Assembly: GCA_964406665.1 (NCBI GenBank)
Contig: CAYOSQ010000005.1
Span: 21,929 to 85,928 of the forward strand
Direction: 5' to 3'
From: an uncultured Planctomycetia bacterium
Lineage (GTDB): Bacteria; Omnitrophota; Gorgyraeia; VGKH01; JBHPFN01
Length of the DNA stretch: 64,000 nt
Shown: positions 27,453 through 39,575 of the stretch, in pieces
Numbering within the stretch: position 1 is the stretch's first letter
Layout: the number at the start of each line of letters is the position of its first letter
Program-made: the position numbers and the translations under genes
The notes under the pieces: model-generated
What the model was told of the DNA's origin: nothing
Databases searched by the model: none
Seen by the model: the letters and a program-made list of their open reading frames with translations, nothing else

Positions 27453-27545
27453 GTGTTATCCAGTAATTATCGGAGCAATTGATTTTTTGTACAAAACTCA
27501 AATTTAGGTTGAAAAAATACCTGATAGCTAATATAATAAATTTCA

Positions 27546-27956
27546 ATGTTAGTTTTTAGCATTCCTAGTGATAGAAAGTCTATTAAAAAGGCAACAAGTA
27601 AAATCTTAACATATATAGAAGATATGAATCTTCGGGAGAAACTTCTTTTTAATGTTAGATTGTGCTGTGAAGAAGCTATAATTAATGCTATTAAACACGG
27701 CAATGCCTATGATTCTGATCTCATGGTCAAAGTATCGGTTTCCAAGACTCCTGAGTATCTTAAGATAAGCGTTAAAGATCAAGGTAAAGGTTTTGATGTT
27801 AGTAAGGTTTCTAACCCTACTGCAAAAGAAAACTTACTTAAATTATCCGGCAGAGGAGTACATCTTATGAGAAATTATATGGATGAAGTTTCTTTCAGTG
27901 AAAAGGGAAACCGTGTTACAATGATGAAGTATATTAAAAAAGCTAATAGGAGGTAA
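27546..27956 (+). CDS. Anti-sigma factor / serine protein kinase (RsbW/SpoIIAB-like, HATPase_c)
   Basis: 'EEAIINAIKHG' N-box and 'VKDQGKGF' G1-box. 136 aa. Confidence 0.7.
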   Translation: MLVFSIPSDRKSIKKATSKILTYIEDMNLREKLLFNVRLCCEEAIINAIKHGNAYDSDLMVKVSVSKTPEYLKISVKDQGKGFDVSKVSNPTAKENLLKLSGRGVHLMRNYMDEVSFSEKGNRVTMMKYIKKANRR

Positions 27957-28291
27957 TGATGCAGATAAAAGAGTCTGAAAATAGCGGAGTTGTAGTTTTA
28001 TCAGTTGAAGGAGATATTGATTTAAATTCATCTCCCATAATGAGAGATAAGTTTAATGAATTGGCGCAAAAAGAAACTTCTAAAATTCTGTTAAACTTTT
28101 CTTCTGTTAATTATATTGATAGTTCAGGACTTGCCACTTTAATTGAAATGCTCCAGAGGTTGAAGAAATATCAGGGACAGTTGCGCCTGGCAAATGTTTC
28201 TGAAAAAATTAGAAGTCTTTTTGAGGTAACTAAATTAGATAAGCTTTTTAAGATGTATGCCAGCGAAGATGATGCCATAAAGGATTTCTAG
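27956..28291 (+). CDS. Anti-sigma factor antagonist (STAS domain, RsbV/SpoIIAA-like)
   Basis: 'VLSVEGDIDLNSSPIMRDKF...NYIDSSGLATLIEM' with the conserved phospho-Ser. Confidence 0.75.
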   Translation: MMQIKESENSGVVVLSVEGDIDLNSSPIMRDKFNELAQKETSKILLNFSSVNYIDSSGLATLIEMLQRLKKYQGQLRLANVSEKIRSLFEVTKLDKLFKMYASEDDAIKDF

Positions 28292-28303
28292 TCAAAAAAA
28301 TCT

Positions 28304-29101
28304 ATGTTAAATATATTCGAGAATATAGGTAAGAGTACTAAGGATTTAGTTAATCAAATAATTGGAGTAGCTAAGCTTTTGCTGGATACTCTTTACTGGA
28401 TAATAGTTGCGCCTTTCAAAGGTAAATCCCTTAAGCGTCAAAGTATTTTTGAACAGATGGTTTTTATGGGGATTAAGTCTATTGTTATAGTTTTCTTTGT
28501 AACGTTTTTCACAGGCGTTGTTCTTGCCATGCAGTCGGCCTATCAATTAAAACAACTTGGAGCAGAGATTTACGTTGCTAGTTTGGTTGCTGTGTCTTTA
28601 ACAAGAGAACTTGGTCCGGTCCTGACTGCTTTGGTTATTGCTGGGAGAATTGGGGCTGCCATTACTGCAGAGATAGGTTCAATGAAAGTATCTGAGCAGA
28701 TTGAAGCTCTTGATACCATGGCAATAAATCCTATCAGATTTTTAGTTGTTCCCAAGTTTTTGGCTTTAGTGATTATGCTTCCATGTCTTACTATAATTGG
28801 TGATTTTGTGGGTATGTTTGGTGGATATTTGGTTGGAATTTTCAATCTAAGGATTAACTCTGCATTATATATCCAGACTTCCTTGAAGTTTTTGGAGCTT
28901 AAGGATATTTATTCTGGCTTAGGTAAGTCGGTTGTGTTTGCTGTGATAATTGCCTTGATTGGGTGTTATCAGGGTTTAAATACAAAAGGTGGGGCTGAAG
29001 GTGTTGGCAAAGCTACTACCTTGAGTGTGGTGACTAGTTTTATTCTAATTATTCTAGCAGATTGTGTTATAACGGGAATATTGTATTTTTCTAACATGTA
29101 A
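28304..29101 (+). CDS. mlaE: MlaE-family ABC transporter permease
   Basis: 265-aa polytopic permease with the MlaE pattern ('IGSMKVSEQIEALDTMAINP'). Confidence 0.8.
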   Translation: MLNIFENIGKSTKDLVNQIIGVAKLLLDTLYWIIVAPFKGKSLKRQSIFEQMVFMGIKSIVIVFFVTFFTGVVLAMQSAYQLKQLGAEIYVASLVAVSLTRELGPVLTALVIAGRIGAAITAEIGSMKVSEQIEALDTMAINPIRFLVVPKFLALVIMLPCLTIIGDFVGMFGGYLVGIFNLRINSALYIQTSLKFLELKDIYSGLGKSVVFAVIIALIGCYQGLNTKGGAEGVGKATTLSVVTSFILIILADCVITGILYFSNM

Positions 29102-29107
29102 ATAACT

Positions 29108-29914
29108 ATGACAGAAGAAAAAAAAATAGCAATATCTATTCGTGGTTTAGAAAAATCTTTTGGTGATCATAGGGTTCTCTGTGGAGTTAATCTGGATATA
29201 AATAAAGGCGAGACTTTTGTTATTATGGGTGGTTCAGGTTGCGGAAAGAGCACTTTGTTAAGACATATTGTTGGTGCAATGAAACCTAATGCAGGAAAAA
29301 TATATTTTGGTGATAAAGATATTGTTTCAATTTCTGGATCTGAACTTGAGAACGTAAAAAGAAAATTTGGATTACTTTTTCAATCTGGAGCATTACTTGA
29401 TTCCCTTACTGTTGAAGAAAATGTGAGCCTTCCCCTTAAAGAGCATACAAAATTAGATTCTAGCATTATAAAGATTATAGTTAAGATGAAGTTGGCCCTT
29501 GTGGGTTTAAGAGGTTTTGAGCATTTAATGCCAAGTGAACTATCTGGTGGAATGAAGAAGCGTGTTGGTCTTGCCCGTGCAATAGCTATGGATCCTGAGA
29601 TGATCTTTTATGATGAGCCTACTGCGGGGCTAGACCCTGTAGTTGCTGCTGTTATAGATAAGCTAATTTTGGATTTAAGTAAGAAGTTACTCATTACATC
29701 AGTTGTGGTAACCCATGATATGCAGAGTGTCTTTAGGATAGCGGATAGAGTTGCTATGTTACATAAAGGTAGGGTTCTCGAAGTGGGCACCACTAAAGAA
29801 ATCAAGAATTCCAAGAATGAAATCGTCCAACAATTTATAAACGGCAATACAGAAGGTCCTTTAGATTTCTTTAAAAAGGGAGATGATTATCTTCAGGACC
29901 TTGTGGGGATTTAG
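29108..29914 (+). CDS. mlaF: MlaF-family ABC transporter ATP-binding protein
   Basis: Walker A 'GGSGCGKST', signature 'LSGGMKKR', Walker B 'MIFYDEPTAGLD'. Confidence 0.85.
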   Translation: MTEEKKIAISIRGLEKSFGDHRVLCGVNLDINKGETFVIMGGSGCGKSTLLRHIVGAMKPNAGKIYFGDKDIVSISGSELENVKRKFGLLFQSGALLDSLTVEENVSLPLKEHTKLDSSIIKIIVKMKLALVGLRGFEHLMPSELSGGMKKRVGLARAIAMDPEMIFYDEPTAGLDPVVAAVIDKLILDLSKKLLITSVVVTHDMQSVFRIADRVAMLHKGRVLEVGTTKEIKNSKNEIVQQFINGNTEGPLDFFKKGDDYLQDLVGI

Positions 29915-29932
29915 ATAATAAAGGAGCTAAGC

Positions 29933-30571
29933 ATGAAGATTAATAACGAAACTAAAATAGGTATAATGGTAACGATTTGCCTGATTGCTCTGGGGGCACT
30001 TACTTGTAAAGTGGGAGATTTTAGCCTTAACAAAAAAGGTTATGAGATTAAGGCGGAGTTTATCAATATCGATGGGGTTGAGACGAATGCTCCTGTTCGT
30101 TTAAATGGACTCGAGATTGGAAAAGTTACTGATATTGAAATTATTTATGGTGATCAAACAAAAATGTTGCTTACTATTTGGATTGATGAAACTGCAAAAG
30201 TAAAAGATCAGGTAAAAGCTTCAGTTAAGACTATGGGACTTATGGGTGAGAAATATATTGCCCTTACTGATTCTGGTGAAGGGGATGTTTATTTAGAAAA
30301 AGATTCACTAGTTATCGGGCAGGAACCTTTAGATATAGACGCGCTTATGGCCAAGGGTGATGTTATCGCTGATAATGTTAATTTGGCCTTAGAAAATATT
30401 GTAGAAATTACTGATAATGTTAAAGAAAGACTTGCTCTAAATAAAGAAAGCATAGATCAAATAATTGAAAATCTGAAATATGTAAGTGAGAATTTTGAAG
30501 AGTTAAGCGGGGATTTAAAACGCAATCCTTGGAAGTTGTTGTTCCGCACAAAAGAAAAGAAAGAAGAATAA
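29933..30571 (+). CDS. mlaD: MlaD-like MCE-domain protein
   Basis: N-terminal TM anchor followed by an MCE domain ('FINIDGVETNAPVRLNGLEIGKV'). Confidence 0.7.
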   Translation: MKINNETKIGIMVTICLIALGALTCKVGDFSLNKKGYEIKAEFINIDGVETNAPVRLNGLEIGKVTDIEIIYGDQTKMLLTIWIDETAKVKDQVKASVKTMGLMGEKYIALTDSGEGDVYLEKDSLVIGQEPLDIDALMAKGDVIADNVNLALENIVEITDNVKERLALNKESIDQIIENLKYVSENFEELSGDLKRNPWKLLFRTKEKKEE

Positions 30572-30587
30572 TCGGGGGTATATTTTT

Positions 30588-31385
30588 ATGAACAAATCAA
30601 TATTTGCTGTAATTTCAATTTTAGCTATATTATTTTCTTGCAGCACAGCTTTTGCTCAGGCTCATCAACTTCAGGCAGAGATTATTTATGTTGAAGGTAG
30701 TGTTTTTGTTAAACAAAGCATTGATTCTGATTGGGTAGATGCAAAAGTTGGCATGGTACTAGAGAAGAATGCAGTTGTTAGGGTTGGCGAGGGTTCAAAA
30801 TGCGATATTGTTTTTGATGGAAATAAAGAAAATATTATTGGTCTTTCCAAGAATACAGAAATATCCTTATCTGATGCTGCCCCTAGGAGTGTTCAGTTGG
30901 TCAGAGGAAGAGTTTTTTCACTTATTAAAAAATTAAAAAAGGATTCTAGGTTTGAGGTCAGAACTCCAACTGCAATTTCTGGTGCTAGGGGAACTGGATG
31001 GGCAAGTACCTATGATGGCAGTAAGACTAAATTTGAGGCACACGAGAAAGATATTTATGTTTCTGGTCTTGATAAGGATGGTAAATCTAGAGGAAAACAA
31101 ACATTAGGTGAAGGAAATTCTGTAAATATATCTGGGTTAGGTTTTATTGAGGACTTTTTAGGTTTAGGCTCAGAGGAGAAAAATCGTTGGAAAAAATGGA
31201 AGAAAGATTCTCTGGACCATCTAGGCGGATATAATAAGGGTAGTGGAATGAAGCCTATGGGAAACACCGAAGATCAGCTTGATGATTTTTCTGATAAGTT
31301 AGATGATATTCTTGAGCTTAAAGATTTAGATAAAATTGAGGATAGATTAGACGATGGTGGTTCCGGGGGCTATGAACTTGAATAA
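30588..31385 (+). CDS. Secreted FecR-domain-like protein, hypothetical
   Basis: Signal peptide 'ILAILFSCSTAFAQA'. FecR-like beta-rich central region. Acidic C-terminal tail. Confidence 0.4.
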   Translation: MNKSIFAVISILAILFSCSTAFAQAHQLQAEIIYVEGSVFVKQSIDSDWVDAKVGMVLEKNAVVRVGEGSKCDIVFDGNKENIIGLSKNTEISLSDAAPRSVQLVRGRVFSLIKKLKKDSRFEVRTPTAISGARGTGWASTYDGSKTKFEAHEKDIYVSGLDKDGKSRGKQTLGEGNSVNISGLGFIEDFLGLGSEEKNRWKKWKKDSLDHLGGYNKGSGMKPMGNTEDQLDDFSDKLDDILELKDLDKIEDRLDDGGSGGYELE

Positions 31386-31402
31386 TAAAACAAGGAAATC
31401 AA

Positions 31403-32425
31403 ATGAATAAAAAAACTTTAGTATTTTCAATATTTATTTTATTGTTTTGTTCAAATGTCTATTCCCAAACCATTACGGAGGATAAGCAGGAAAAGCATGA
31501 AGATAGAGAATCTTTTAGCCAAAGTTATTCTACTGAGCAAGATACAAGTGATGAATCGAGATATCAGATTGAGTCTAATTTTGGATTTTTTATAGGATTT
31601 GATAACAACGTATTCTTAGATTCAACTCGCAAGGGCGATACTTTTCAGAATTATATTTATAGTTTAAATTATTCAAATAAACTAAAAAGAGATTTAGATT
31701 TAAAGATTAAGTACAGCCTTAACTCGCTTCAGTATGATAGATACACTGATAATTCTTCTGTGGGTAATACAGGAAATTTTGCTTTAGAGAAAAAATTGGG
31801 TGGGCGTAATCTTGTGGGAATTTCTACTGAAATAGGTTCTGTTTATTATCCAAGCAATGATCAGGGTGAATATTTTACAGCTGGAGGTTCTTTGTATGGT
31901 AAACAGTTTTTAGGAAAGAACCTGTATCATCGAGCTGGTTATAGTTTTTTAAGTAAAAGTTTTATGCATCGTAAGGCGAAAGACGGCAACGGCGTTGATA
32001 TGGAAGAAGAGAGAGATGATGTGCGCCATGCTATAGATTACGAAGTAGGGTTTTATCCGGATAATCAATCATTATTTAAGTTAAAAGGTCAGGTATATAA
32101 TAATGATTCTCGAGATGGATATATGGATTATTATGATTATGATTCTTTTAAGCTTGGCGCAACATTTATAAAACTACTAAACGATAAATGGTCATCGCTT
32201 CTTAACTATAATTTTCGTAGAAATAATTATAAAACTCGCCTAATTAAAAATGGATCAGAGGCAGAGTATGATAATAATCATACTGGAAACGCAGGAATTA
32301 TTTATAAATTAAGTGAAAACACTTCAGCATCAGCAATATATTCTTATTCGCAGAATTATTCTAATGATAGCGGTCAGGAATATTCCGTTAGCATGGTATC
32401 TTTAGGCCTGCGATATGCCTTCTAA
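31403..32425 (+). CDS. Putative outer-membrane beta-barrel protein
   Basis: Signal peptide, alternating Tyr/Gly/Asn-rich amphipathic strands, C-terminal 'LGLRYAF' (terminal Phe). Confidence 0.4.
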   Translation: MNKKTLVFSIFILLFCSNVYSQTITEDKQEKHEDRESFSQSYSTEQDTSDESRYQIESNFGFFIGFDNNVFLDSTRKGDTFQNYIYSLNYSNKLKRDLDLKIKYSLNSLQYDRYTDNSSVGNTGNFALEKKLGGRNLVGISTEIGSVYYPSNDQGEYFTAGGSLYGKQFLGKNLYHRAGYSFLSKSFMHRKAKDGNGVDMEEERDDVRHAIDYEVGFYPDNQSLFKLKGQVYNNDSRDGYMDYYDYDSFKLGATFIKLLNDKWSSLLNYNFRRNNYKTRLIKNGSEAEYDNNHTGNAGIIYKLSENTSASAIYSYSQNYSNDSGQEYSVSMVSLGLRYAF

Positions 32426-34352
32426 AATTTCAAAGATAAAGTTAAACAATCATATTACCAAATCAATTTTATTCGTAGTTGTCGCTGTAATTATTTTTTG
32501 TCTTTCTTTTTTTAGAGTTTTTGATTTATACGAATTAGTACTTCTTGATCTGCGTTTTAAAATCCGACCGGTTCAACAATTCATTGACGATATAGTTATT
32601 ATTGAAATTTCTGATGATACTTTGCAGAATTTAAGCCAGTGGCCACTGCCTCGTGATTTTCATGCAAGTTTAATGGATGTTTTAAGAGAGCTTAAAGTAA
32701 AGCAGGTATTTTTTGACATTTTATTTAGTGAAAAGACTAGATGGGATGATGTTTTCAGGGCTTCTTTGAAAAAAGCAGATAATGCATATCTTTCATATGC
32801 TTTTAGATTAGATAGTGATCCACGCCCAGGTGCTTTTAGGGCTAGTTCTGAAATTATCGCTCCCTTACTTGATAATTTTAATAAAGTAGTACATGGAAGC
32901 GGACATATTAATATTTTAACTGATGCTGATGGTAAGAGTAGATGGGCACCTCTTTTCGTTAAATATAAAGACGATCTTCATCCCCATATTGCTTTAAAAG
33001 CCGCTTGTGATTATCTAGGGATTTCTTTGGAAGATGTGGCTTTGAAGAATAATTACTTATTAATAGGAAAAGAATTAAGTGTTCCTGTTTCAGATACAGG
33101 ATGTGTAATGATTAATTATGTTGGACCATGGACAAAAAGTTTCAAACATTACTCTTATTTTGACATACTTGCAGCTTATCAAGAAGAGAGAGAGGGCGTA
33201 GCTCCCCGAATCAATCTAAGAGCTTTAAGGGGTAAGGTTTGTTTTGTTGGTCTTACGGCTACAGGAACATTAGATCTGCATGCGATGCCACTTGAACCAA
33301 TTTATCCTATGGTGGGGTTGCATGCAAATATTTTCAATAGCATTGTTTTGAAGAAGTTTTTAACAAGATTAAGTAGAACTATTAATTTAGTTATTCTAGC
33401 TGTTTTAATTCTTTTAGCTTTATTGATTACGCTTAAATTTAGACCATTAAAAAGTTTTCTTACAGTTTTTGGTTTAGGTATTAGCTATGCTTTAATCTGT
33501 TTTGCTTTGTTTGTATTTCTTGGTTTATGGCTGGATTTATTCTTTCCTTTAGTAATTTTGATGGTAGTGTATTTGTCTGTAACGCTCTTGAAATTCCTTA
33601 GCGAGGCGAGAAAAAATGAGCTAATGGAAAAAGAGCTTTCAATTGCCAAAGAGATACAGATAAGTTTTCTTCCGGATGAGATAAATAAGTTTGCTGATAT
33701 AGAGATAGCCTCAGACATGGTAACAGCCAAGCACGTTGGTGGAGATTTGTATGATATCAGGGTATTAGATGATGATAAATTGGGAATATTTTTAGGAGAT
33801 GTTGCCGGCAAAGGTGTATCTGCTGCATTGGTTATGGCTAAGGCTATTTCACTGTTTAGGATTTTTTCGACTGAAACAGAATCTCCTGCAGCATTGCTTG
33901 AAAAATTAAATGATGCAATGGTTAAAGATTCTAAATCCGGATTGTTTGTAACTTCAACTTATATAATTTATGATTCTAAGCAGCATAAGGTAATACTTTC
34001 TAGCGGCGGACATCTTCCCACACTTCTGGTTAAAGGCAGGAGTGCAGAAAGTGAAATGATAGATGTTGAAGGTGGAATGCCTTTAGGAATAATGGATGGT
34101 GTAGAATTTTGTGATAAGACCATTGGTCTTAACATTGGTGATAGCGTAGTGCTGTATACTGATGGTGTTGTTGAAGCGAAAAACATTAAACGAGAAGATT
34201 TCGAAGAGGAAAGATTGGTAAGCTGCGTGGCTGAAAGTAAGAACTTAAGCGTACAAGATATTATTTCTACGATAAAGAGCAAATTAAGATTATTTGTTGG
34301 TAAAGCACCACAACATGATGATATAACTATTATTGTTTTTAAGAGAGTCTAA
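32415..34352 (+). CDS. CHASE2 sensor domain / PP2C (SpoIIE/RsbU-type) serine phosphatase
   Basis: N-terminal TM + periplasmic CHASE2-like region, 3 TM helices, then the PP2C core ('HVGGDLYD', 'GDVAGKGVSAALVMA', 'LYTDGVVEAKN'). Confidence 0.7.
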   Translation: MPSKISKIKLNNHITKSILFVVVAVIIFCLSFFRVFDLYELVLLDLRFKIRPVQQFIDDIVIIEISDDTLQNLSQWPLPRDFHASLMDVLRELKVKQVFFDILFSEKTRWDDVFRASLKKADNAYLSYAFRLDSDPRPGAFRASSEIIAPLLDNFNKVVHGSGHINILTDADGKSRWAPLFVKYKDDLHPHIALKAACDYLGISLEDVALKNNYLLIGKELSVPVSDTGCVMINYVGPWTKSFKHYSYFDILAAYQEEREGVAPRINLRALRGKVCFVGLTATGTLDLHAMPLEPIYPMVGLHANIFNSIVLKKFLTRLSRTINLVILAVLILLALLITLKFRPLKSFLTVFGLGISYALICFALFVFLGLWLDLFFPLVILMVVYLSVTLLKFLSEARKNELMEKELSIAKEIQISFLPDEINKFADIEIASDMVTAKHVGGDLYDIRVLDDDKLGIFLGDVAGKGVSAALVMAKAISLFRIFSTETESPAALLEKLNDAMVKDSKSGLFVTSTYIIYDSKQHKVILSSGGHLPTLLVKGRSAESEMIDVEGGMPLGIMDGVEFCDKTIGLNIGDSVVLYTDGVVEAKNIKREDFEEERLVSCVAESKNLSVQDIISTIKSKLRLFVGKAPQHDDITIIVFKRV

Positions 34353-34472
34353 TCTGGATTTATTTTAAGGCAGTTTATTGATATTTTCTTGCATTATAAA
34401 ACTAAATTTGCTATAAGATAAATAGAGCATAATATTGTAAATGAATTAATAAAAGTATACAAGAGAGAGGAG

Positions 34473-34895
34473 TTGGTTTTTATGCCGGGGAAAATCAAAA
34501 GAAGACTATTTATTATTGCAAATAAATACCAAAAACAGGTTATCCAGCTAGTTTTCTTTACTACCGTTGTTCCGGTAATTATTACCATAGTGGCGCTTTG
34601 CTATCTATTTTTTGATATAACTACTAATCTTATGCTTGGTGGGTATGATTCGATTCCTCTAATAAAAAAGATAATCTTGATAACAATTGTTACATTACCT
34701 CTATATATTATTATGTTGGGAATTTGGTCATATAAGATTTCTAATAGATTAACCGGACCAATATTAAGAATAAATCAAGATTTACAAGATATTATTGATG
34801 GAAAGTCAAAGCAACGTTTATTCGTCAGGGAAACAGATTATTTGAAAGATCTGGTTGATAAGATAAATGTTCTTATCGATAGGCTTAATCAATAA
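34473..34895 (+). CDS. Small membrane protein, hypothetical (two TM helices and an amphipathic tail)
   Basis: 140-aa ORF preceded by a TTGCAT-17-TATAAG promoter-like sequence and RBS 'agagaggag'. Confidence 0.35.
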   Translation: MVFMPGKIKRRLFIIANKYQKQVIQLVFFTTVVPVIITIVALCYLFFDITTNLMLGGYDSIPLIKKIILITIVTLPLYIIMLGIWSYKISNRLTGPILRINQDLQDIIDGKSKQRLFVRETDYLKDLVDKINVLIDRLNQ

Positions 34896-34978: not shown

Positions 34979-35905
34979 ATGGATAAAACATTTAAAAGAT
35001 TTATAACACTTCCTGTAGTTGAGTTTACATTTTTCAGTATCTTAGGATTATTTTTCTGGTTTAGTCAAAAAGAGCAGAATATCTTACCTTTAATTATTTT
35101 CATTTATATTGCAGTGTTTGTACCAGGTGGAATGCTGCTTTATGCTTTTTTGCCGTCACAAAAGAAGAATATAGGTAGAAGGTTTACTTATATCATGGCA
35201 GGATTGCTTCTTTTTCTCGAGATCGGAATTTTAGGTAGACAAAACCTTCAGTTGGAAGGTTTATTTTTTACGCTACTTTCTGGTTTTTTTTCTGCAGCTC
35301 TGTTGCATTATTGTATAGCTAAGATTATTGGTCCTATAATTTTAAACAGGGCTTGGTGCGGCTGGGGTTGTTGGACAATGATGATCTTAGATTTACTTCC
35401 TTATAAAGAGAGCAGCGGTCGCCTTAAAGGAAAATGGGGATTCTTAAGATATCTTCATTTTATCGCAAGCCTGATTCTTGTAGTATGGTTCTGGAACACA
35501 TTTAGATATTCAATCCCTAAAGAAAACTGGGGCATGATAGGATTATACTGGTTTCTTATCGGAAATGCTCTGTATTACGCCTTGGGTATCATCCTGGCAA
35601 TAATTCTTAAGGATAATCGGGCTTTTTGTAAATATGCCTGTCCCATAACTGTCTTTCTTAAGCTATCCAGCATATTCTCTTTACTTAAGATAAAAACTGA
35701 CAAAGACTCTTGCCAGGGATGTCAGCAGTGTATGAAAGCCTGTCCTATGGATATACGTATACCCGAATACACTAAGTTAGGTACAAGGGTGCTTTCTAGT
35801 GAATGTACACTTTGTCTGAAATGCATAAACGCCTGCCCAAATAAAGCCCTTAAGGTTTCTGTTGGATTCGACATAGGAGGGAAGGATTTTTTGAATGAAA
35901 AGTAG
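34979..35905 (+). CDS. NapH/MauN-like membrane polyferredoxin (2x[4Fe-4S]), paralog 1
   Basis: Four or more TM helices. 'RAWCGWGCW' (NapH-type CxxxC box). Two ferredoxin motifs 'CQGCQQCMKACP' and 'CTLCLKCINACP'. Confidence 0.7.
   Translation: MDKTFKRFITLPVVEFTFFSILGLFFWFSQKEQNILPLIIFIYIAVFVPGGMLLYAFLPSQKKNIGRRFTYIMAGLLLFLEIGILGRQNLQLEGLFFTLLSGFFSAALLHYCIAKIIGPIILNRAWCGWGCWTMMILDLLPYKESSGRLKGKWGFLRYLHFIASLILVVWFWNTFRYSIPKENWGMIGLYWFLIGNALYYALGIILAIILKDNRAFCKYACPITVFLKLSSIFSLLKIKTDKDSCQGCQQCMKACPMDIRIPEYTKLGTRVLSSECTLCLKCINACPNKALKVSVGFDIGGKDFLNEK
35353..35899 (+). repeat. 547-bp perfect direct repeat, copy 1 (period 913 bp); partner at 36266..36812
   Basis: Exact nucleotide identity across the 3' halves of the two polyferredoxin genes. 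Confidence 0.95.
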
Positions 35906-36845
35906 AACTTCTTTTTTAAATCACTGGCTTGTTGCTCCCTTAATGATAATTTCGTTCTTTTTTACTATTGCAATCTTTCTTTGGATATCTGAAGGTATTT
36001 TTTCATTGCTTATATTTTCCACAGGTATATTTGTTGTCTCAGGTGCTATTTTGTATATAAAATTGCCTGAAACAAAGAAGTATCTTGCCCGTAGGATTTC
36101 TTTTTTCGCGGTAGGCATGTCGCTTTTCTTCGGCGTTGGTATCTTAGCTCAGGAGAACTTACAGCTTGAGGGATTTTTCTTCTCTATCTTAGGGGGTCTT
36201 TATCCTATGGCTATGATACATTATATGATTGGTAAAATATTTGGTACTATTATTCTACAGAGAGGTTGGTGCGGCTGGGGTTGTTGGACAATGATGATCT
36301 TAGATTTACTTCCTTATAAAGAGAGCAGCGGTCGCCTTAAAGGAAAATGGGGATTCTTAAGATATCTTCATTTTATCGCAAGCCTGATTCTTGTAGTATG
36401 GTTCTGGAACACATTTAGATATTCAATCCCTAAAGAAAACTGGGGCATGATAGGATTATACTGGTTTCTTATCGGAAATGCTCTGTATTACGCCTTGGGT
36501 ATCATCCTGGCAATAATTCTTAAGGATAATCGGGCTTTTTGTAAATATGCCTGTCCCATAACTGTCTTTCTTAAGCTATCCAGCATATTCTCTTTACTTA
36601 AGATAAAAACTGACAAAGACTCTTGCCAGGGATGTCAGCAGTGTATGAAAGCCTGTCCTATGGATATACGTATACCCGAATACACTAAGTTAGGTACAAG
36701 GGTGCTTTCTAGTGAATGTACACTTTGTCTGAAATGCATAAACGCCTGCCCAAATAAAGCCCTTAAGGTTTCTGTTGGATTCGACATAGGAGGGAAGGAT
36801 TTTTTGAATGAACGGGAGCCTGAATTCGATTCCCAATCTTCTTAG
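35895..36845 (+). CDS. NapH/MauN-like membrane polyferredoxin, paralog 2
   Basis: Same architecture. The N-terminal half is about 40% identical to paralog 1; the C-terminal half is nucleotide-identical. Start ATG overlaps the stop of paralog 1. Confidence 0.7.
   Translation: MKSRTSFLNHWLVAPLMIISFFFTIAIFLWISEGIFSLLIFSTGIFVVSGAILYIKLPETKKYLARRISFFAVGMSLFFGVGILAQENLQLEGFFFSILGGLYPMAMIHYMIGKIFGTIILQRGWCGWGCWTMMILDLLPYKESSGRLKGKWGFLRYLHFIASLILVVWFWNTFRYSIPKENWGMIGLYWFLIGNALYYALGIILAIILKDNRAFCKYACPITVFLKLSSIFSLLKIKTDKDSCQGCQQCMKACPMDIRIPEYTKLGTRVLSSECTLCLKCINACPNKALKVSVGFDIGGKDFLNEREPEFDSQSS
36266..36812 (+). repeat. 547-bp perfect direct repeat, copy 2
   Basis: See 35353..35899. Confidence 0.95.
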
Positions 36846-36925
36846 CAAGCGGTTTTTCGCCTTGCAAAAAGCTAAAATTTGAGCTAATATAATTATCAGA
36901 TTTACCCGTCGACTTTTATGCTTTA

Positions 36926-36998
36926 GGGCCGATAGTTCAGTTGGGAGAACGCCTGGTTCGCAATCAGGAGGTCGGGGGTTCAACTCCCCCTCGGTCCA
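36926..36998 (+). tRNA. tRNA-Ala (anticodon CGC)
   Basis: Cloverleaf: acceptor GGGCCGA/TCGGTCC with G3:U70 Ala identity pair, D-stem GTTC/GAAC, anticodon stem CCTGG/TCAGG with loop TTCGCAA, T-stem GGGGG/CCCCC with loop TTCAACT. CCA is not encoded. Confidence 0.85.
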
Positions 36999-37021
36999 CA
37001 AATTTAGGAAAAAATAGTAAA

Positions 37022-38119
37022 ATGAACAAAAAAAGCTTGATAACTCTCTTCTTGTTAATTATTTTAAGTGTAACGTTATTTTTCTCTAATGCTTATGTTT
37101 CTTCTAATCCTTTGAAGGAAGCGATGTATTATAAGAAACTTGAGGATAAAAAAGTTAATTGTCAACTTTGCCCTCGTAGGTGTTTAATCCAAAATAACAA
37201 AAGAGGATTTTGTGGGGTAAGAGAAAATAAGGAGGGGATTCTTTATTCTCTTGTTTACGGAGAACCCTGTGCAGTACATGTTGACCCCATTGAAAAAAAA
37301 CCACTTTTTCATTTTTTCCCCAAAAGCAAAGCGTTTTCAATCGCTACAGTTGGTTGTAATCTTAAGTGTAAATTTTGTCAGAACTGGGAGATTTCCCAGG
37401 CTTCTCCCGGAGACGTTAGAACTTACAAATTATCTCCTGAAGAAATCGTTGAGCATGCTATTAAGTCAGGATCGCGCTCCATTGCATATACGTATACTGA
37501 GCCCACGATTTTTTATGAATACATGATTGATATTGCTAAGATTGCTAAAAGAAGAGGCGTAAAAAATGTTATGCATTCTGCTGGACACATAAGTGAAGAA
37601 CCCTTAAGGCAACTGTGTAAATATCTTGATGCTGCTAATATTGATTTGAAGGGCTTTACTGAGGATTATTATAGTGAGATGTCTCTGGGAAGTCTGGAAT
37701 CTGTGCTTAAAACTTTAAAGATTTTGGATGAAGAAGGTGTTTGGGTTGAAATAACTAATCTTGTGGTACCCGGATTAAACGATGATCCCGAACTTATTAA
37801 GGCAATGAGTATTTGGATAAAAGATAATTTGGGTCCTGAGACTCCGCTACACTTTTCTAGATTCTGGCCGATGTATAAGCTAAAGAATCTTTCACCGACA
37901 CCTGTTAGTACTATTGAACGGGCAAGGAAAATTGCAATGGAGAATGGTCTTAAATTTGTATATATAGGAAATGTAGTAGGGCATAAAGCAGAGGATACGT
38001 TTTGCCCGGTTTGTGGTAAATCAATAATTGAACGCTCAGGTTATTCAATAAACAAAATAAATATAAAAGATGGAAAGTGCGTATTTTGCAATGCGGAGGT
38101 CCCTGGTGTCTGGAAATAA
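37022..38119 (+). CDS. AmmeMemoRadiSam system radical SAM enzyme with extra N-terminal signal/anchor segment
   Basis: 'VNCQLCPRRCLI...RGFCGVRE' N-terminal Cys box, 'DPIEKKPLFHF', radical SAM 'GCNLKCKFCQNWEIS'. The N-terminal 30 aa 'MNKKSLITLFLLIILSVTLFFSNA' are hydrophobic. The ORF-track start at 36941 is rejected because it overlaps the tRNA. Confidence 0.85.
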   Translation: MNKKSLITLFLLIILSVTLFFSNAYVSSNPLKEAMYYKKLEDKKVNCQLCPRRCLIQNNKRGFCGVRENKEGILYSLVYGEPCAVHVDPIEKKPLFHFFPKSKAFSIATVGCNLKCKFCQNWEISQASPGDVRTYKLSPEEIVEHAIKSGSRSIAYTYTEPTIFYEYMIDIAKIAKRRGVKNVMHSAGHISEEPLRQLCKYLDAANIDLKGFTEDYYSEMSLGSLESVLKTLKILDEEGVWVEITNLVVPGLNDDPELIKAMSIWIKDNLGPETPLHFSRFWPMYKLKNLSPTPVSTIERARKIAMENGLKFVYIGNVVGHKAEDTFCPVCGKSIIERSGYSINKINIKDGKCVFCNAEVPGVWK

Positions 38120-39575
38120 AATTGTCATAATATTAATTATTATTTTTTTAACGGGCACAGTTATTGTGGCTGAAGAAGAAATAAAATTGCCTAATGTCAG
38201 CGGGGCATTTTATCCTGCCAATAAGATTATTTTATCTACCCAGATTAATTCTTTTTTAAATAAGGCTCGAATTCCGGAGATTTCCCAAAACCCCGTTGCT
38301 TTAATATCTCCCCATGCAGGATATGTCTATTCTGGTGCAGTAGCTGCATATGGATATAAGGCTATAAAAGGAAGGCATTATAAAACCGTGGTGGTTATTG
38401 CCCCGAGTCATTTTGCTGATTTTCAAGGGTTTTCTGTGTGGAAGGAAGGAAAGTTTAAAACTCCTTTAGGTGACATTGAGGTTGATTCTGAATTTTCTAA
38501 TAGATTGATTAATGCAACAAATAAAATTAAATACTTGCCAAATGTTTTTGAAAAAGAACATTCTTTGGAGGTTCAACTTCCGTTCTTGCAAAAGGTCTTG
38601 AAGAATTTTAAAATAGTTCCCGTTATTGTTTCTCCACGAGCGAGCCTGGAAGATTGTAAAGATTTTGCTTCAATTTTAAATGATACGACAGGGAATCGAT
38701 CGGATGTTTTAGTTATTGCTAGTACAGATTTATCTCACTATCGTAGCGGTAAGGATGCAGATAAAATTGATGCAAAGACAATTTCCTGCATTAAAGATAT
38801 GGATTTAAATTCTCTTTGGGTAAAAAGCTCTTTAAAGGAAGTGGAGCTTTGTGGTCTTCGTCCGGTAGAGATTACAATTTTTTATGCAAAATTGAGAAAT
38901 GCAACAAATATTAAGATTTTAAAACATGCAAATTCTGGGGATGCTAGCGGTGATTATAAAAGGGTTGTAGGGTATTTAAGCGCTGTGTTTCTAAAAGCAG
39001 CTGTTGAAGGAGAGAAAGATATGCTTAACAATATTCAGAAAAAACAATTATTGGGAATTGCCAGAGAATCTTTAGAGTCTTATGTAAGAAGTAAAAAAAG
39101 AACTAATCCGCAAACTCAGGATGATAAACTTAAGCAAAAGACAGGTGCTTTTGTTACTCTTCATAAAAATGGACAGCTGCGTGGTTGCATTGGTAGGATT
39201 GTAGGGGATACGCCTTTGTATCAGGTTGTTGCTGATTATGCTGTTGAAGCTGCTGTAAACGATCCACGCTTTCCAGAAGTTAAAAGCGGCGAATTAAAAG
39301 AAATTGATCTGGAGATTTCAGCAATGACCCCGCTTAAAAAGATTAGCGATGTTAATATTATTGAGGTGGGAAAGCATGGAATATTGATGCGCAAAGGTTT
39401 CTATTCGGGTCTTTTACTCCCTCAGGTCGCAACTGAATACGGCTGGGATAGGGAAACATTCTTAGGGCATACCTGTCAGAAGGCCGGACTTCCAACAGAT
39501 TGCTGGAAAGACAAATCTACGCAAGTATTCATATTTAGTGCAGAAGTATTCTCAGAAGATTCTATTAAAGAATAA
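38091..39575 (+). CDS. Fused Memo-like (AmmeMemoRadiSam protein B) / AMMECR1-domain protein with N-terminal hydrophobic segment
   Basis: Memo motif 'ISPHAGYVYSGAVAAYGY...VVVIAPSH'. C-terminal AMMECR1 'GAFVTLHKNGQLRGCIGRI'. Start is ATG 38091 or GTG 38106; both overlap the radical SAM gene end. N-terminal 'IVIILIIIFLTGTVIVA'. Confidence 0.8.
   Translation: MRRSLVSGNKIVIILIIIFLTGTVIVAEEEIKLPNVSGAFYPANKIILSTQINSFLNKARIPEISQNPVALISPHAGYVYSGAVAAYGYKAIKGRHYKTVVVIAPSHFADFQGFSVWKEGKFKTPLGDIEVDSEFSNRLINATNKIKYLPNVFEKEHSLEVQLPFLQKVLKNFKIVPVIVSPRASLEDCKDFASILNDTTGNRSDVLVIASTDLSHYRSGKDADKIDAKTISCIKDMDLNSLWVKSSLKEVELCGLRPVEITIFYAKLRNATNIKILKHANSGDASGDYKRVVGYLSAVFLKAAVEGEKDMLNNIQKKQLLGIARESLESYVRSKKRTNPQTQDDKLKQKTGAFVTLHKNGQLRGCIGRIVGDTPLYQVVADYAVEAAVNDPRFPEVKSGELKEIDLEISAMTPLKKISDVNIIEVGKHGILMRKGFYSGLLLPQVATEYGWDRETFLGHTCQKAGLPTDCWKDKSTQVFIFSAEVFSEDSIKE

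What the first reader, a model, noticed from the sequence alone, without database searches (positions are those of the whole stretch)
34979..36845. Tandem NapH-like polyferredoxin genes with 547-bp perfectly identical 3' halves
Two adjacent membrane [4Fe-4S] proteins have N-terminal halves that are only about 40% identical. From the 'WCGWGCW' box to the penultimate codon (35353-35899 and 36266-36812) the DNA is 100% identical. This implies recent gene conversion of the 3' half between older paralogs. The second gene's ATG overlaps the first gene's stop. Such mosaics are rare for redox proteins and the repeat is a hotspot for deletion, duplication and misassembly.
Basis: seen in the sequence. 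Interest (0 to 1): 0.55.

Follow-up and report, generated by a model that had tools for sequence, protein, structure and literature searches.

The report
Unstable tandem polyferredoxin genes sharing identical half
Two neighbouring membrane iron-sulfur protein genes in an uncultured marine Omnitrophota bacterium really do share a 547-base perfectly identical 3' part, and other assemblies of the same population carry only one fused gene; this is a tidy but ordinary case of recent recombination and repeat-driven gene gain or loss.

Summary
Window 35353-35899 and 36266-36812 are identical at 547 of 547 bases. The preceding parts, N1 and N2, are about 38% identical in protein, with saturated synonymous sites (dS about 2.6) right up to the breakpoint.

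The repeat is not a misassembly. Three complete assemblies carry it. Nine contigs from other samples stop exactly k bases (55, 99 or 119) into a repeat copy. One contig is a closed 913-bp N2-C cycle.

New result: five assemblies of the same near-clonal population (about 1 SNP per 10 kb) carry a single 317-aa gene. It is exactly N1 + C + gene 2's tail, which is the window minus one 913-bp unit. The syntenic locus of the nearest relative (Omnitrophota MAG, L009) also has one gene of that architecture. C and N1 group with that ortholog. N2 has no relative above about 44% identity among 1.84 billion representative proteins.

Best reading: a very recent recombination placed the resident C module behind a deeply divergent four-helix N module. 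The perfect repeats now drive loss of the unit. Whether N2 is an old resident paralog (gene conversion) or a recent import is unresolved. The proteins are NapH-like but are not NapH. Interest is modest.

The parts
34979..35905 (+). Gene 1 (308 aa): membrane polyferredoxin made of N1 + C, ending ...LNEK*. The last codon and the stop are read from the start of gene 2.
   Evidence: ORF list. Pfam Fer4_5 and Fer4 families. NapH/MauN model TIGR02163 scores 67 bits against a cutoff of 213. The exact protein is found on 4 contigs.
35895..36845 (+). Gene 2 (316 aa): membrane polyferredoxin made of N2 + C + the tail REPEFDSQSS.
   Evidence: ORF list. Family searches. The exact protein is found on 6 contigs. 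AlphaFold2 model: pLDDT 86.5, six TM helices plus a ferredoxin domain.
34979..35352 (+). N1: the resident N-terminal module (TM1-TM4) of gene 1.
   Evidence: It is 53% identical in protein to the syntenic ortholog P0003 and about 70% identical in collinear DNA. It groups with P0003 in 66% of NJ bootstraps and never with N2.
35353..35899 (+). Repeat copy 1 (C). It encodes the first Cys motif WCGWGCW, TM5-TM6, the second Cys motif CKYACP and the two [4Fe-4S] motifs.
   Evidence: Exact 547-nt run. C groups with the syntenic ortholog P0003 in 93% of bootstraps. It is 68% identical in DNA to the L009 gene.
35900..36265 (+). N2-unique segment (366 nt). Together with ATGAA at 35895-35899 it encodes the deeply divergent TM1-TM4 module of gene 2.
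   Evidence: No relative above about 44% identity among 1.84 billion representatives. A word-based search found nothing. dS against N1 is 2.6. It keeps all family-invariant residues and violates 3 of the 22 most conserved N-half positions. It shows no DNA similarity to L009.
36266..36812 (+). Repeat copy 2 (C), identical to copy 1.
   Evidence: Both copies are exact in L001 and L002/L016.
35900..36812 (+). The 913-bp facultative unit (N2-unique segment plus one C copy). Because of the repeat, any register from 35353-36265 to 35900-36812 is equivalent. It is absent from the single-gene assemblies.
   Evidence: L019, L020, L022 and L033 equal the window minus exactly 913 bp, with 0-1 SNP. L011 is a closed 913-bp cycle.
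35895..35899 (+). ATGAA junction. These 5 nt are shared by the end of C (TTGAATGAA|CGG in copy 2) and the start of gene 2 (ATGAA|AAGT). This is the 3' edge of the repeat and a possible microhomology join.
   Evidence: Read directly from the sequence. The ortholog in L009 has AACGAA at this position and no ATG.
35876..35886 (+). Shine-Dalgarno-like GGAGGGAAGGA, ending 8 nt upstream of gene 2's ATG. It lies inside the coding sequence of C, so it is also present in copy 2 at 36789-36799.
   Evidence: Read directly from the sequence.
36813..36845 (+). The unique 3' tail of gene 2 (REPEFDSQSS + stop). It resembles the tail of the single-copy ortholog (RKPLTKE).

Best explanation
The locus is real. 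It encodes two co-oriented, 11-nt-overlapping genes for six-helix membrane polyferredoxins of the NapH/NosR/RdhC superfamily.

One very recent homologous-recombination event placed the resident gene's redox core (C) behind a second, anciently divergent four-helix N module (N2). That event was either a gene conversion with gene 1 as donor or an unequal or Campbell-type exchange. C comprises Cys motif 1, TM5-TM6, Cys motif 2 and the two [4Fe-4S] motifs.

The 5' breakpoint lies at the TM4/WCGWGCW junction, which is the most conserved DNA in the family. The 3' breakpoint is the ATGAA shared by the end of C and the start of gene 2.

The resulting 547-bp perfect direct repeats make the 913-bp unit (N2 + C) unstable. 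Recombination between them removes it and leaves a single in-frame N1-C-tail gene, a form that coexists in the same near-clonal marine population.

Shown: the repeat, its lineage, the breakpoints and both forms in assemblies. Inferred: the recombination mechanism, its direction, and that the two forms are real cell-to-cell variants.

The rest falls on the rivals listed below.
For: - Exact 547-nt repeat, with an abrupt switch from saturated divergence.
- C groups with the syntenic single-copy ortholog P0003 in 93% of bootstraps. N1 groups with P0003 in 66% and with N2 in 0%. DNA collinearity with L009 holds for N1 and C but not for N2.
- Independent assemblies: 3 complete tandems. Nine contigs from other samples end or start exactly 55, 99 or 119 nt inside a repeat copy. 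One contig is a closed 913-bp cycle with a 119-nt overlap.
- Five contigs carry a single 317-aa gene that is residue for residue N1+C+tail, in flanks with 0-1 SNP per 10 kb.
- The flanking SNP at 32000 (A/G) occurs with both forms, which fits recurrent loss.
- N2 retains every family-invariant residue, and dN/dS is about 0.2, so gene 2 looks functional.
- The breakpoint falls at a structural module boundary in a confident model.
Against: - No reads were available. One-gene and two-gene contigs could partly reflect assembler path choice or pruning of a low-coverage loop.
- No relative carries a tandem pair, so the prior existence of two resident paralogs is unproven.
- A classical conversion tract should end inside homology. 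Here the 3' end coincides with the very last homologous bases, which fits a duplication or insertion junction at least as well.
- The four-gamete argument rests on one SNP in consensus contigs.
Confidence: 0.6

Rival explanations
1. Recent import of N2. The ancestral and still-segregating state is the single gene N1-C-tail, as in the relative L009. A foreign or otherwise unsampled homolog's N module was joined in. The join was illegitimate at the ATGAA microhomology on one side and homologous at the conserved WCGWGCW-coding DNA on the other. It happened through sister-chromatid bridging, through homology-facilitated illegitimate recombination on a transient duplication, or through Campbell-type integration of a circle. 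Any of these duplicates the resident C. On this view the C copies are identical because the duplication itself is young, not because older copies were homogenised.
For: - The single-gene form is collinear with the ortholog, tail included.
- The tandem is unique to this population, and all five relatives examined are single genes.
- N2 is never sister to N1, is a long branch, and has no close kin.
- The identity ends exactly at structural junctions, with a 5-nt microhomology.
- Both forms share the same clonal flanks.
Against: - It needs a complex or two-step mechanism.
- N2's GC content and codon usage lie within the host range (GC3 0.32 against 0.28; 16th percentile of codon likelihood), so N2 is not obviously foreign.
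- No donor lineage was found.
- The SNP at 32000 occurs on both forms, which is easier to explain by recurrent deletion than by recurrent insertion.
Confidence: 0.3
2. Only the tandem exists in cells, and the single-gene contigs are collapsed assemblies. The assembler walked N1-C-tail and dropped the N2 loop, which at 366 nt plus overlaps would fall below the contig length cut-offs.
For: - Tandem repeats longer than the read or insert length are classic collapse sites.
- Ten of 18 assemblies visibly struggle at this repeat.
- The flanks of the single and tandem contigs are identical.
Against: - Four of the five single-form contigs come from assemblies whose other contigs break unitig-style at k = 99 or 119. 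A loop at full coverage would force a break there, as it does in L023, L030 and L031.
- Passing straight through C implies that N2 was absent or a small minority in those samples.
- The same pipeline gave tandem, broken and single outcomes in sibling samples.
Confidence: 0.22
3. The tandem itself is an assembly or binning artefact. N2 belongs to another organism or locus, and the join to C is chimeric.
For: Metagenome-derived sequence. The repeat is longer than typical reads.
Against: - N2 is bounded on both sides by at least 119 nt identical to C, in assemblies from three data sources and with at least three k values.
- Contigs span N1-C-N2 and N2-C-tail separately.
- The 913-bp cycle closes exactly.
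- An unrelated locus would not share the sequence upstream of its start codon with the 3' end of C.
Confidence: 0.04
4. Long-running, selection-maintained concerted evolution. The two genes are old neighbours whose redox cores are repeatedly homogenised, for example because both must fit the same partner, while the N modules have escaped conversion.
For: - The breakpoint lies at a structural module boundary.
- The GC3 of C is raised (0.396 against a host mean of 0.276; amino-acid-controlled z = 2.8), but this is not so in the single-copy ortholog. That could be a footprint of GC-biased conversion.
- Concerted evolution of energy-metabolism genes is documented in prokaryotes (PMC6053082).
Against: - No second lineage with the pair exists in which to show recurrence.
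- One of 62 host sequence chunks reaches the same GC3 excess.
- A long-lived perfect repeat would be lost quickly by deletion unless selection were strong.
Confidence: 0.12

Closest known systems
Interlocus gene conversion / concerted evolution of bacterial paralogs (e.g. tufA/tufB; Santoyo & Romero 2005; survey in PMC6053082)
   Same: The paralogs are identical to each other, synonymous sites included, yet only 68% identical in DNA to the ortholog. The phylogenies of different gene segments disagree. Homologous recombination is the implied driver.
   Different: Only the 3' two-thirds of the gene is affected, and the tract runs to the last homologous base. The published prokaryotic survey considered full-length conversions only (PMC6053082, Discussion). 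The prior existence of two paralogs is not shown here, and recurrence across species cannot be shown.
Unstable tandem duplications and repeat-mediated (RecA-dependent) deletion in bacteria (general knowledge: Anderson & Roth; Reams & Roth. Long-read examples of duplication and conversion variation within one outbreak clone: PMC12046097)
   Same: Perfect direct repeats flank a unit that is present, absent or possibly multiplied within one clonal population. The loss is precise: one repeat plus the spacer.
   Different: The unit is not a simple copy of its neighbour. It carries a 366-bp module as diverged as an ortholog from another phylum, so loss cannot be reversed by re-duplication.
NapH / MauN quinol dehydrogenase ferredoxin subunits, and the NapH-NosR-RdhC membrane module (PMC5928378)
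   Same: Polytopic membrane protein with two cytoplasmic-side CX3C(P) motifs and two C-terminal CX2CX2CX3CP [4Fe-4S] motifs. The HMM alignment to NapH covers TM4 to the C-terminus (residues ~106-295).
   Different: It scores far below the NapH cutoffs. It has six rather than four TM helices, with an extra N-terminal bundle. The first motif is CX3C-W rather than CX3CP. There are no napA/G/F, nos or rdh genes nearby. No solved structure resembles the membrane part.

Membership tests
NapH/MauN family (TIGR02163; PRK09477 NapH) | Score at or above the curated family cutoff | tested here: not met
   TIGR02163 scores 67.0 and 65.6 bits against a cutoff of 213. PRK09477 scores 63.6 and 60.7 bits against 234.
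NapH/MauN family | Two C-terminal [4Fe-4S] binding motifs (CX2CX2CX3CP) | tested here: met
   CQGCQQCMKACP and CTLCLKCINACP are both present. Pfam Fer4 family hits. All eight Cys are invariant across 70 homologs.
NapH/MauN family | Two CX3CP motifs in the membrane module (PMC5928378) | tested here: inconclusive
   The second motif, CKYACP, is canonical. The first is CGWGCW: both Cys are invariant, but W replaces P throughout this family.
NapH/MauN family | Four transmembrane segments | tested here: not met
   The AlphaFold2 model (pLDDT 86.5) and hydropathy both give six TM helices. The NapH model aligns only from TM4 onward.
NapH/MauN family | Genomic association with nap (napA/G/F) or mau genes | tested here: not met
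   The neighbours within about 10 kb are a CHASE2-SpoIIE phosphatase, a 137-aa membrane protein, tRNA-Ala, AmmeMemoRadiSam genes, RsmE, a MiaB-like gene and RecA. The relatives sit in unrelated contexts.
Interlocus gene conversion between paralogs | The segment is identical between paralogs, synonymous sites included, while the orthologs are diverged | tested here: met
   0 of 547 differences between the copies. C is 68% identical in DNA to the L009 ortholog.
Interlocus gene conversion between paralogs | Phylogenetic discordance between the converted and unconverted segments | tested here: met
   N half: N1+P0003 66%, N1+N2 0%. C half: G1+G2 100%, and with P0003 93%.
Interlocus gene conversion between paralogs | Both paralogs existed before the event (the pair is present in related lineages) | tested here: inconclusive
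   None of the five relatives has a pair, and the syntenic ortholog is single. Sampling of this lineage is very sparse: the genome and metagenome scans found no closer kin.
Repeat-mediated tandem duplication/deletion polymorphism | Perfect direct repeats bound the variable unit, and the short form equals a precise loss of one repeat plus the spacer | tested here: met
   L019, L020, L022 and L033 equal the window minus exactly 913 bp. The protein equals the predicted chimera at 317 of 317 residues.
Repeat-mediated tandem duplication/deletion polymorphism | Both forms coexist in one population, confirmed at read level | not testable with these tools
   Both forms are seen only as contigs: 3 complete tandems, 10 broken or looped, 5 single. 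No reads or coverage were available.

The most novel reading that the evidence does not exclude
The 913-bp N2+C unit behaves as a recombinase-free 'plug-in' cassette. Host homologous recombination across the 547-bp repeat excises it as a circle and can re-integrate it into any cell that carries the C sequence. This would toggle a clonal population between a one-polyferredoxin and a two-polyferredoxin state, with alternative membrane (quinone- or partner-facing) modules on an identical redox core. Selection would keep the cores identical, and the raised GC3 of C would be a footprint of biased conversion.
Probability: 0.08. Interest if true: 0.6.

Novelty: new member of a known kind. Interest (0 to 1): 0.3.

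Why it matters
- It is a clean natural example from an uncultured phylum (Omnitrophota, marine oxygen-deficient water) of recombination building a new gene from a divergent membrane module and a resident redox core. It also shows how the resulting perfect repeat makes gene content vary within one clone.
- For practice, it documents a site where short-read metagenome assemblies give three different answers (one gene, two genes, or a 'circular' 913-bp contig) for the same genome. This affects MAG gene counts and protein clustering: the 317-aa chimera and the 308-aa gene fall in one 90% cluster, and gene 2's N module is hidden behind a truncated cluster representative.
- It does not open a long-standing question. 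The function of this polyferredoxin family remains unknown.

Tried and rejected
- **Chance or selective constraint as the cause of identity:** rejected. About 82 synonymous differences would be expected and none is seen.
- **Recent whole-gene duplication followed by fast adaptive divergence of N2:** rejected. Synonymous sites are saturated, codon identity at conserved residues is at the chance level, there is no gradient toward the breakpoint, and N1+N2 are never sisters.
- **C as N2's original partner (conversion from gene 2 into gene 1):** rejected. C groups with the resident lineage ortholog at 93%.
- **N2 as compositionally foreign DNA:** not supported. Its GC content and codon usage are within the host range, and it is C that is the outlier.
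- **Searches for N2 kin or a donor, all negative:**
  - 5.8-billion word-index search with N2 alone. That search also failed to recover gene 2's own truncated cluster representative, so its sensitivity here is doubtful.
  - Exhaustive HMMER search over 1.84 billion representatives, best identity 41-44%.
  - GTDB genome scan, JGI metagenome scan and viral contigs.
- **Tandem pairs as a family habit:** rejected. All five relatives examined are single genes.
- **Solved-structure homologs of the membrane part:** none found. The afdb50 fold library was unavailable.
- **Promoter and terminator scan of the locus:** no signal above background that changes the picture.
- **First NJ bootstrap run:** timed out and was redone.
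- **Strain-specific SNPs separating the one-gene and two-gene forms:** none found.
Full report
**1. The observation**

Comparing each base with the base 913 positions downstream gives a single maximal exact run of 547 nt, 35353-35899 = 36266-36812. The window holds no other copy.

- Gene 1 is 34979-35905 (308 aa) and gene 2 is 35895-36845 (316 aa).
- Upstream of the run, the two proteins share 49 of 128 aligned residues.
- The genes overlap by 11 nt. Gene 2's ATG (35895-35897) lies inside the last five bases of repeat copy 1. It is preceded by GGAGGGAAGGA (35876-35886), which is itself coding sequence of C.
- Gene 1 ends ...LNEK* only because, after the shared ATGAA, it reads two codons into gene 2.

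**2. The identity is recent and the divergence is old**

- Between N1 and N2, dN is 0.54 and dS is 2.6.
- Among 47 conserved residues with degenerate codons, 17 use the same codon, against 20.3 expected from host codon usage alone.
- Synonymous differences continue into the last codons before the breakpoint.
- If C were equally old, about 82 synonymous differences would be expected. None is seen, and the 95% upper bound on divergence between the copies is 0.55%.

These results exclude two ideas: a recent whole-gene duplicate whose N part raced ahead, and identity maintained by protein-level constraint.

**3. The repeat is not an assembly artefact**

Exact-protein look-ups recovered 17 further contigs of the same population. 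They come from ENA re-assemblies of two studies and from several JGI metagenomes, and they differ from the window by about 1 SNP per 10 kb (SNP density).

- Two contigs contain the full N1-C-N2-C-tail with both C copies exact (L001, L002/L016).
- Six start exactly 55 nt before the end of copy 1, or end exactly 55 nt into copy 2 (L003/L018, L017, L005, L006, L007, L008).
- Three JGI contigs stop 119 or 99 nt into C, or start 119 nt before its end (L030, L031, L023).
- L011 is 1,032 nt with identical 119-nt ends, so it is a closed walk round the 913-bp N2-C cycle.

Breaks at exactly k bases are what a de Bruijn graph produces at a true exact repeat. N2 is bounded on both sides by C in every data set, which forces a tandem (or circular) arrangement and rules out a chimera with another locus.

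**4. The same population also has a one-gene form**

Look-ups through the flanking radical-SAM gene and the upstream 137-aa gene found four contigs with a single 317-aa gene (L019/L026, L020/L024, L022/L027, L033). A fifth appears as fragments P0266 and P0267.

- That protein is residue for residue N1 + C + gene 2's tail.
- The contigs equal the window minus exactly 913 bp, with 0-1 SNP.
- The only informative flanking SNP (32000 A/G) occurs with both forms. This fits recurrent loss, although one SNP in consensus contigs is weak evidence.
- Several of the single-form contigs come from assemblies that elsewhere break unitig-style at this repeat. Passing straight through C therefore suggests N2 was absent or rare in those samples. 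Without reads, collapse cannot be excluded.

**5. Which part is resident**

The closest relative outside the species is P0003, from a Candidatus Omnitrophota MAG. Its locus L009 is syntenic on both sides: MlaE/ABC/MlaD, CHASE2-SpoIIE and a 136-aa protein upstream; tRNA-Ala(CGC), AmmeMemoRadiSam genes, RsmE, a MiaB-like gene and RecA downstream. It has one polyferredoxin gene.

- Its N part resembles N1 (53% in protein; about 70% in collinear DNA).
- Its C part resembles C (69% in protein; 68% in DNA).
- Its tail (LNERKPLTKE) resembles gene 2's tail.
- In NJ bootstraps, C joins P0003 in 93% of replicates, N1 joins P0003 in 66%, and N1 joins N2 in 0%.
- N2 is a long branch: its distance to every other member is at least 1.02, against a family median of 0.84.

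N1, C and the tail therefore form the ancestral gene architecture, and C is of the resident lineage. If a conversion occurred, gene 1 was the donor.

**6. N2 has no known kin but looks functional**

- An exhaustive HMMER search of 1.84 billion representatives gave at most 41-44% identity.
- Word-based, genome, metagenome and viral scans found nothing closer.
- N2 keeps all family-invariant N-half residues and violates 3 of the 22 positions conserved at 90% or more. The family mean is 0.65, and 7 of 68 members do as badly or worse.
- dN/dS is about 0.2.
- Its GC content and codon usage lie within the host range.
- None of the five relatives inspected has a tandem partner.

**7. The proteins**

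- Pfam finds Fer4_5 plus dicluster ferredoxin families.
- NCBIfam's best hit is NapH/MauN, but at 61-67 bits against cutoffs of 213-234. The alignment covers only residues ~106-295.
- A confident AlphaFold2 model (pLDDT 86.5, pTM 0.85) gives this layout:
  - TM1-TM4 at residues 13-121
  - Cys motif 1 (WCGWGCW) at 125-131
  - TM5-TM6 at 154-209
  - Cys motif 2 (CKYACP) at 216-221
  - a 2x[4Fe-4S] domain from about residue 235
- The recombination breakpoint sits exactly at the junction between TM4 and motif 1.
- By analogy with NapH, whose membrane module is proposed to oxidise menaquinol and pass electrons on (PMC5928378), the likely role is electron transfer between the quinone pool and a cytoplasmic-side partner. 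The variable TM1-TM4 bundle would then set quinone or partner specificity. This is inference.
- There are no nap, nos or rdh genes nearby, and no solved structure resembles the membrane part.
- One sample is documented as marine water column from an oxygen-deficient zone (PMC12220078).

**8. Mechanism**

Two histories fit the data.

- **(a) Old resident tandem paralogs.** Gene 2's own C half was overwritten by gene 1's in a recent conversion. The single form then arises by deletion between the repeats.
- **(b) Recent import.** The single gene is ancestral. N2 was recently joined in, by illegitimate recombination at ATGAA and by homologous recombination at the conserved WCGWGCW-coding DNA, and this duplicated C.

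In favour of (a):
- It is mechanistically simple.
- N2 has host-like composition.
- The SNP pattern suggests recurrent loss.

In favour of (b):
- The tandem is unique to this population.
- The single form has the ancestral architecture.
- The identity ends exactly at structural junctions, whereas a conversion tract would normally end inside homology.

I rate (a) at about 0.45 and (b) at about 0.3.

Two probabilities sit alongside these:
- that the single-gene contigs are merely collapsed assemblies: 0.22
- that the tandem itself is an artefact: 0.04

**9. Comparison and verdict**

This is partial-gene homogenisation or duplication followed by repeat-mediated instability. Both are known processes (PMC6053082; PMC12046097; general knowledge of bacterial tandem duplications). 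Here they occur in a protein family and phylum where they had not been described. The case is useful as a worked example and as an assembly caveat, but it is not surprising to a specialist. Interest is 0.3, and the novelty class is 'new member of a known kind'.

Noticed in passing
window 35353-35899 and 36266-36812: The shared C segment is a compositional outlier in its host. Its GC3 is 0.396 against a host mean of 0.276 (amino-acid-controlled z = 2.8; 1 of 62 host chunks reaches this level), and its codon-usage likelihood is in the 1st percentile. N1 (0.264) and N2 (0.323) are ordinary. In the single-copy ortholog L009, the N and C halves have equal GC3 (0.43 and 0.43). This could reflect GC-biased conversion or a more recent origin of C..
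   Followed up: partly
L011 (JGI 3300009106, Ga0117917_1095924), 1-1032: A stand-alone contig that is a closed walk of the 913-bp N2-C cycle with a 119-nt self-overlap. It could come from low coverage plus tip clipping, from arrays of three or more units, or from an excised circle..
   Followed up: partly
window 36808-36882: The Shine-Dalgarno-like sequence and the ATG of gene 2 lie inside the repeat, so copy 2 carries them too. There they open a 24-codon ORF (MNGSLNSIPNLLSKRFFALQKAKI*) that runs over gene 2's stop into the spacer before tRNA-Ala. It is probably a meaningless by-product.
   Followed up: no
window 36926-39575; L009 10645-13308: A tRNA-Ala(CGC) gene is followed by an AmmeMemoRadiSam radical-SAM gene and a fused Memo-AMMECR1 gene (system proteins B and A in one 501-aa protein). 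The order is conserved in the distant relative L009..
   Followed up: no
window 32415-34895 and upstream, about 27500-32400: A CHASE2-SpoIIE (PP2C) membrane phosphatase and a 137-140-aa HAMP-like membrane protein sit directly upstream of the pair. Further upstream lie an anti-sigma-type kinase, a STAS protein, MlaE/ABC/MlaD and a FecR-like gene. This order is also conserved in L009, apart from the FecR-like gene, which is not called there. It may be a partner-switching signalling module..
   Followed up: no
JGI 1,739-bp contig (proteins P0266 and P0267); corresponds to window ~35280-35295: One single-form contig has a frameshift in the T-run of N1 (...SGFF|FCSSVALLYS), which splits the gene in two. 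It is either a homopolymer sequencing error or a real inactivating variant..
   Followed up: no
L017 and L018, window-equivalent 33875-33884: Scaffolds from two different samples carry a 10-N gap at the same place inside the CHASE2-SpoIIE gene. This suggests a second spot that assemblers find difficult..
   Followed up: no
protein clusters: In the 90%-identity protein collection, gene 2 is represented by a truncated 233-aa fragment (P0001), and the 317-aa chimera is clustered with gene 1. The first 73 residues of N2 are therefore invisible to representative-based searches. The N2-only word search did not recover even P0001.
   Followed up: partly
L009 9273-10361: In the relative, a GDSL-family lipase gene on the opposite strand lies between the single polyferredoxin gene and tRNA-Ala. 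It is absent from the window..
   Followed up: no
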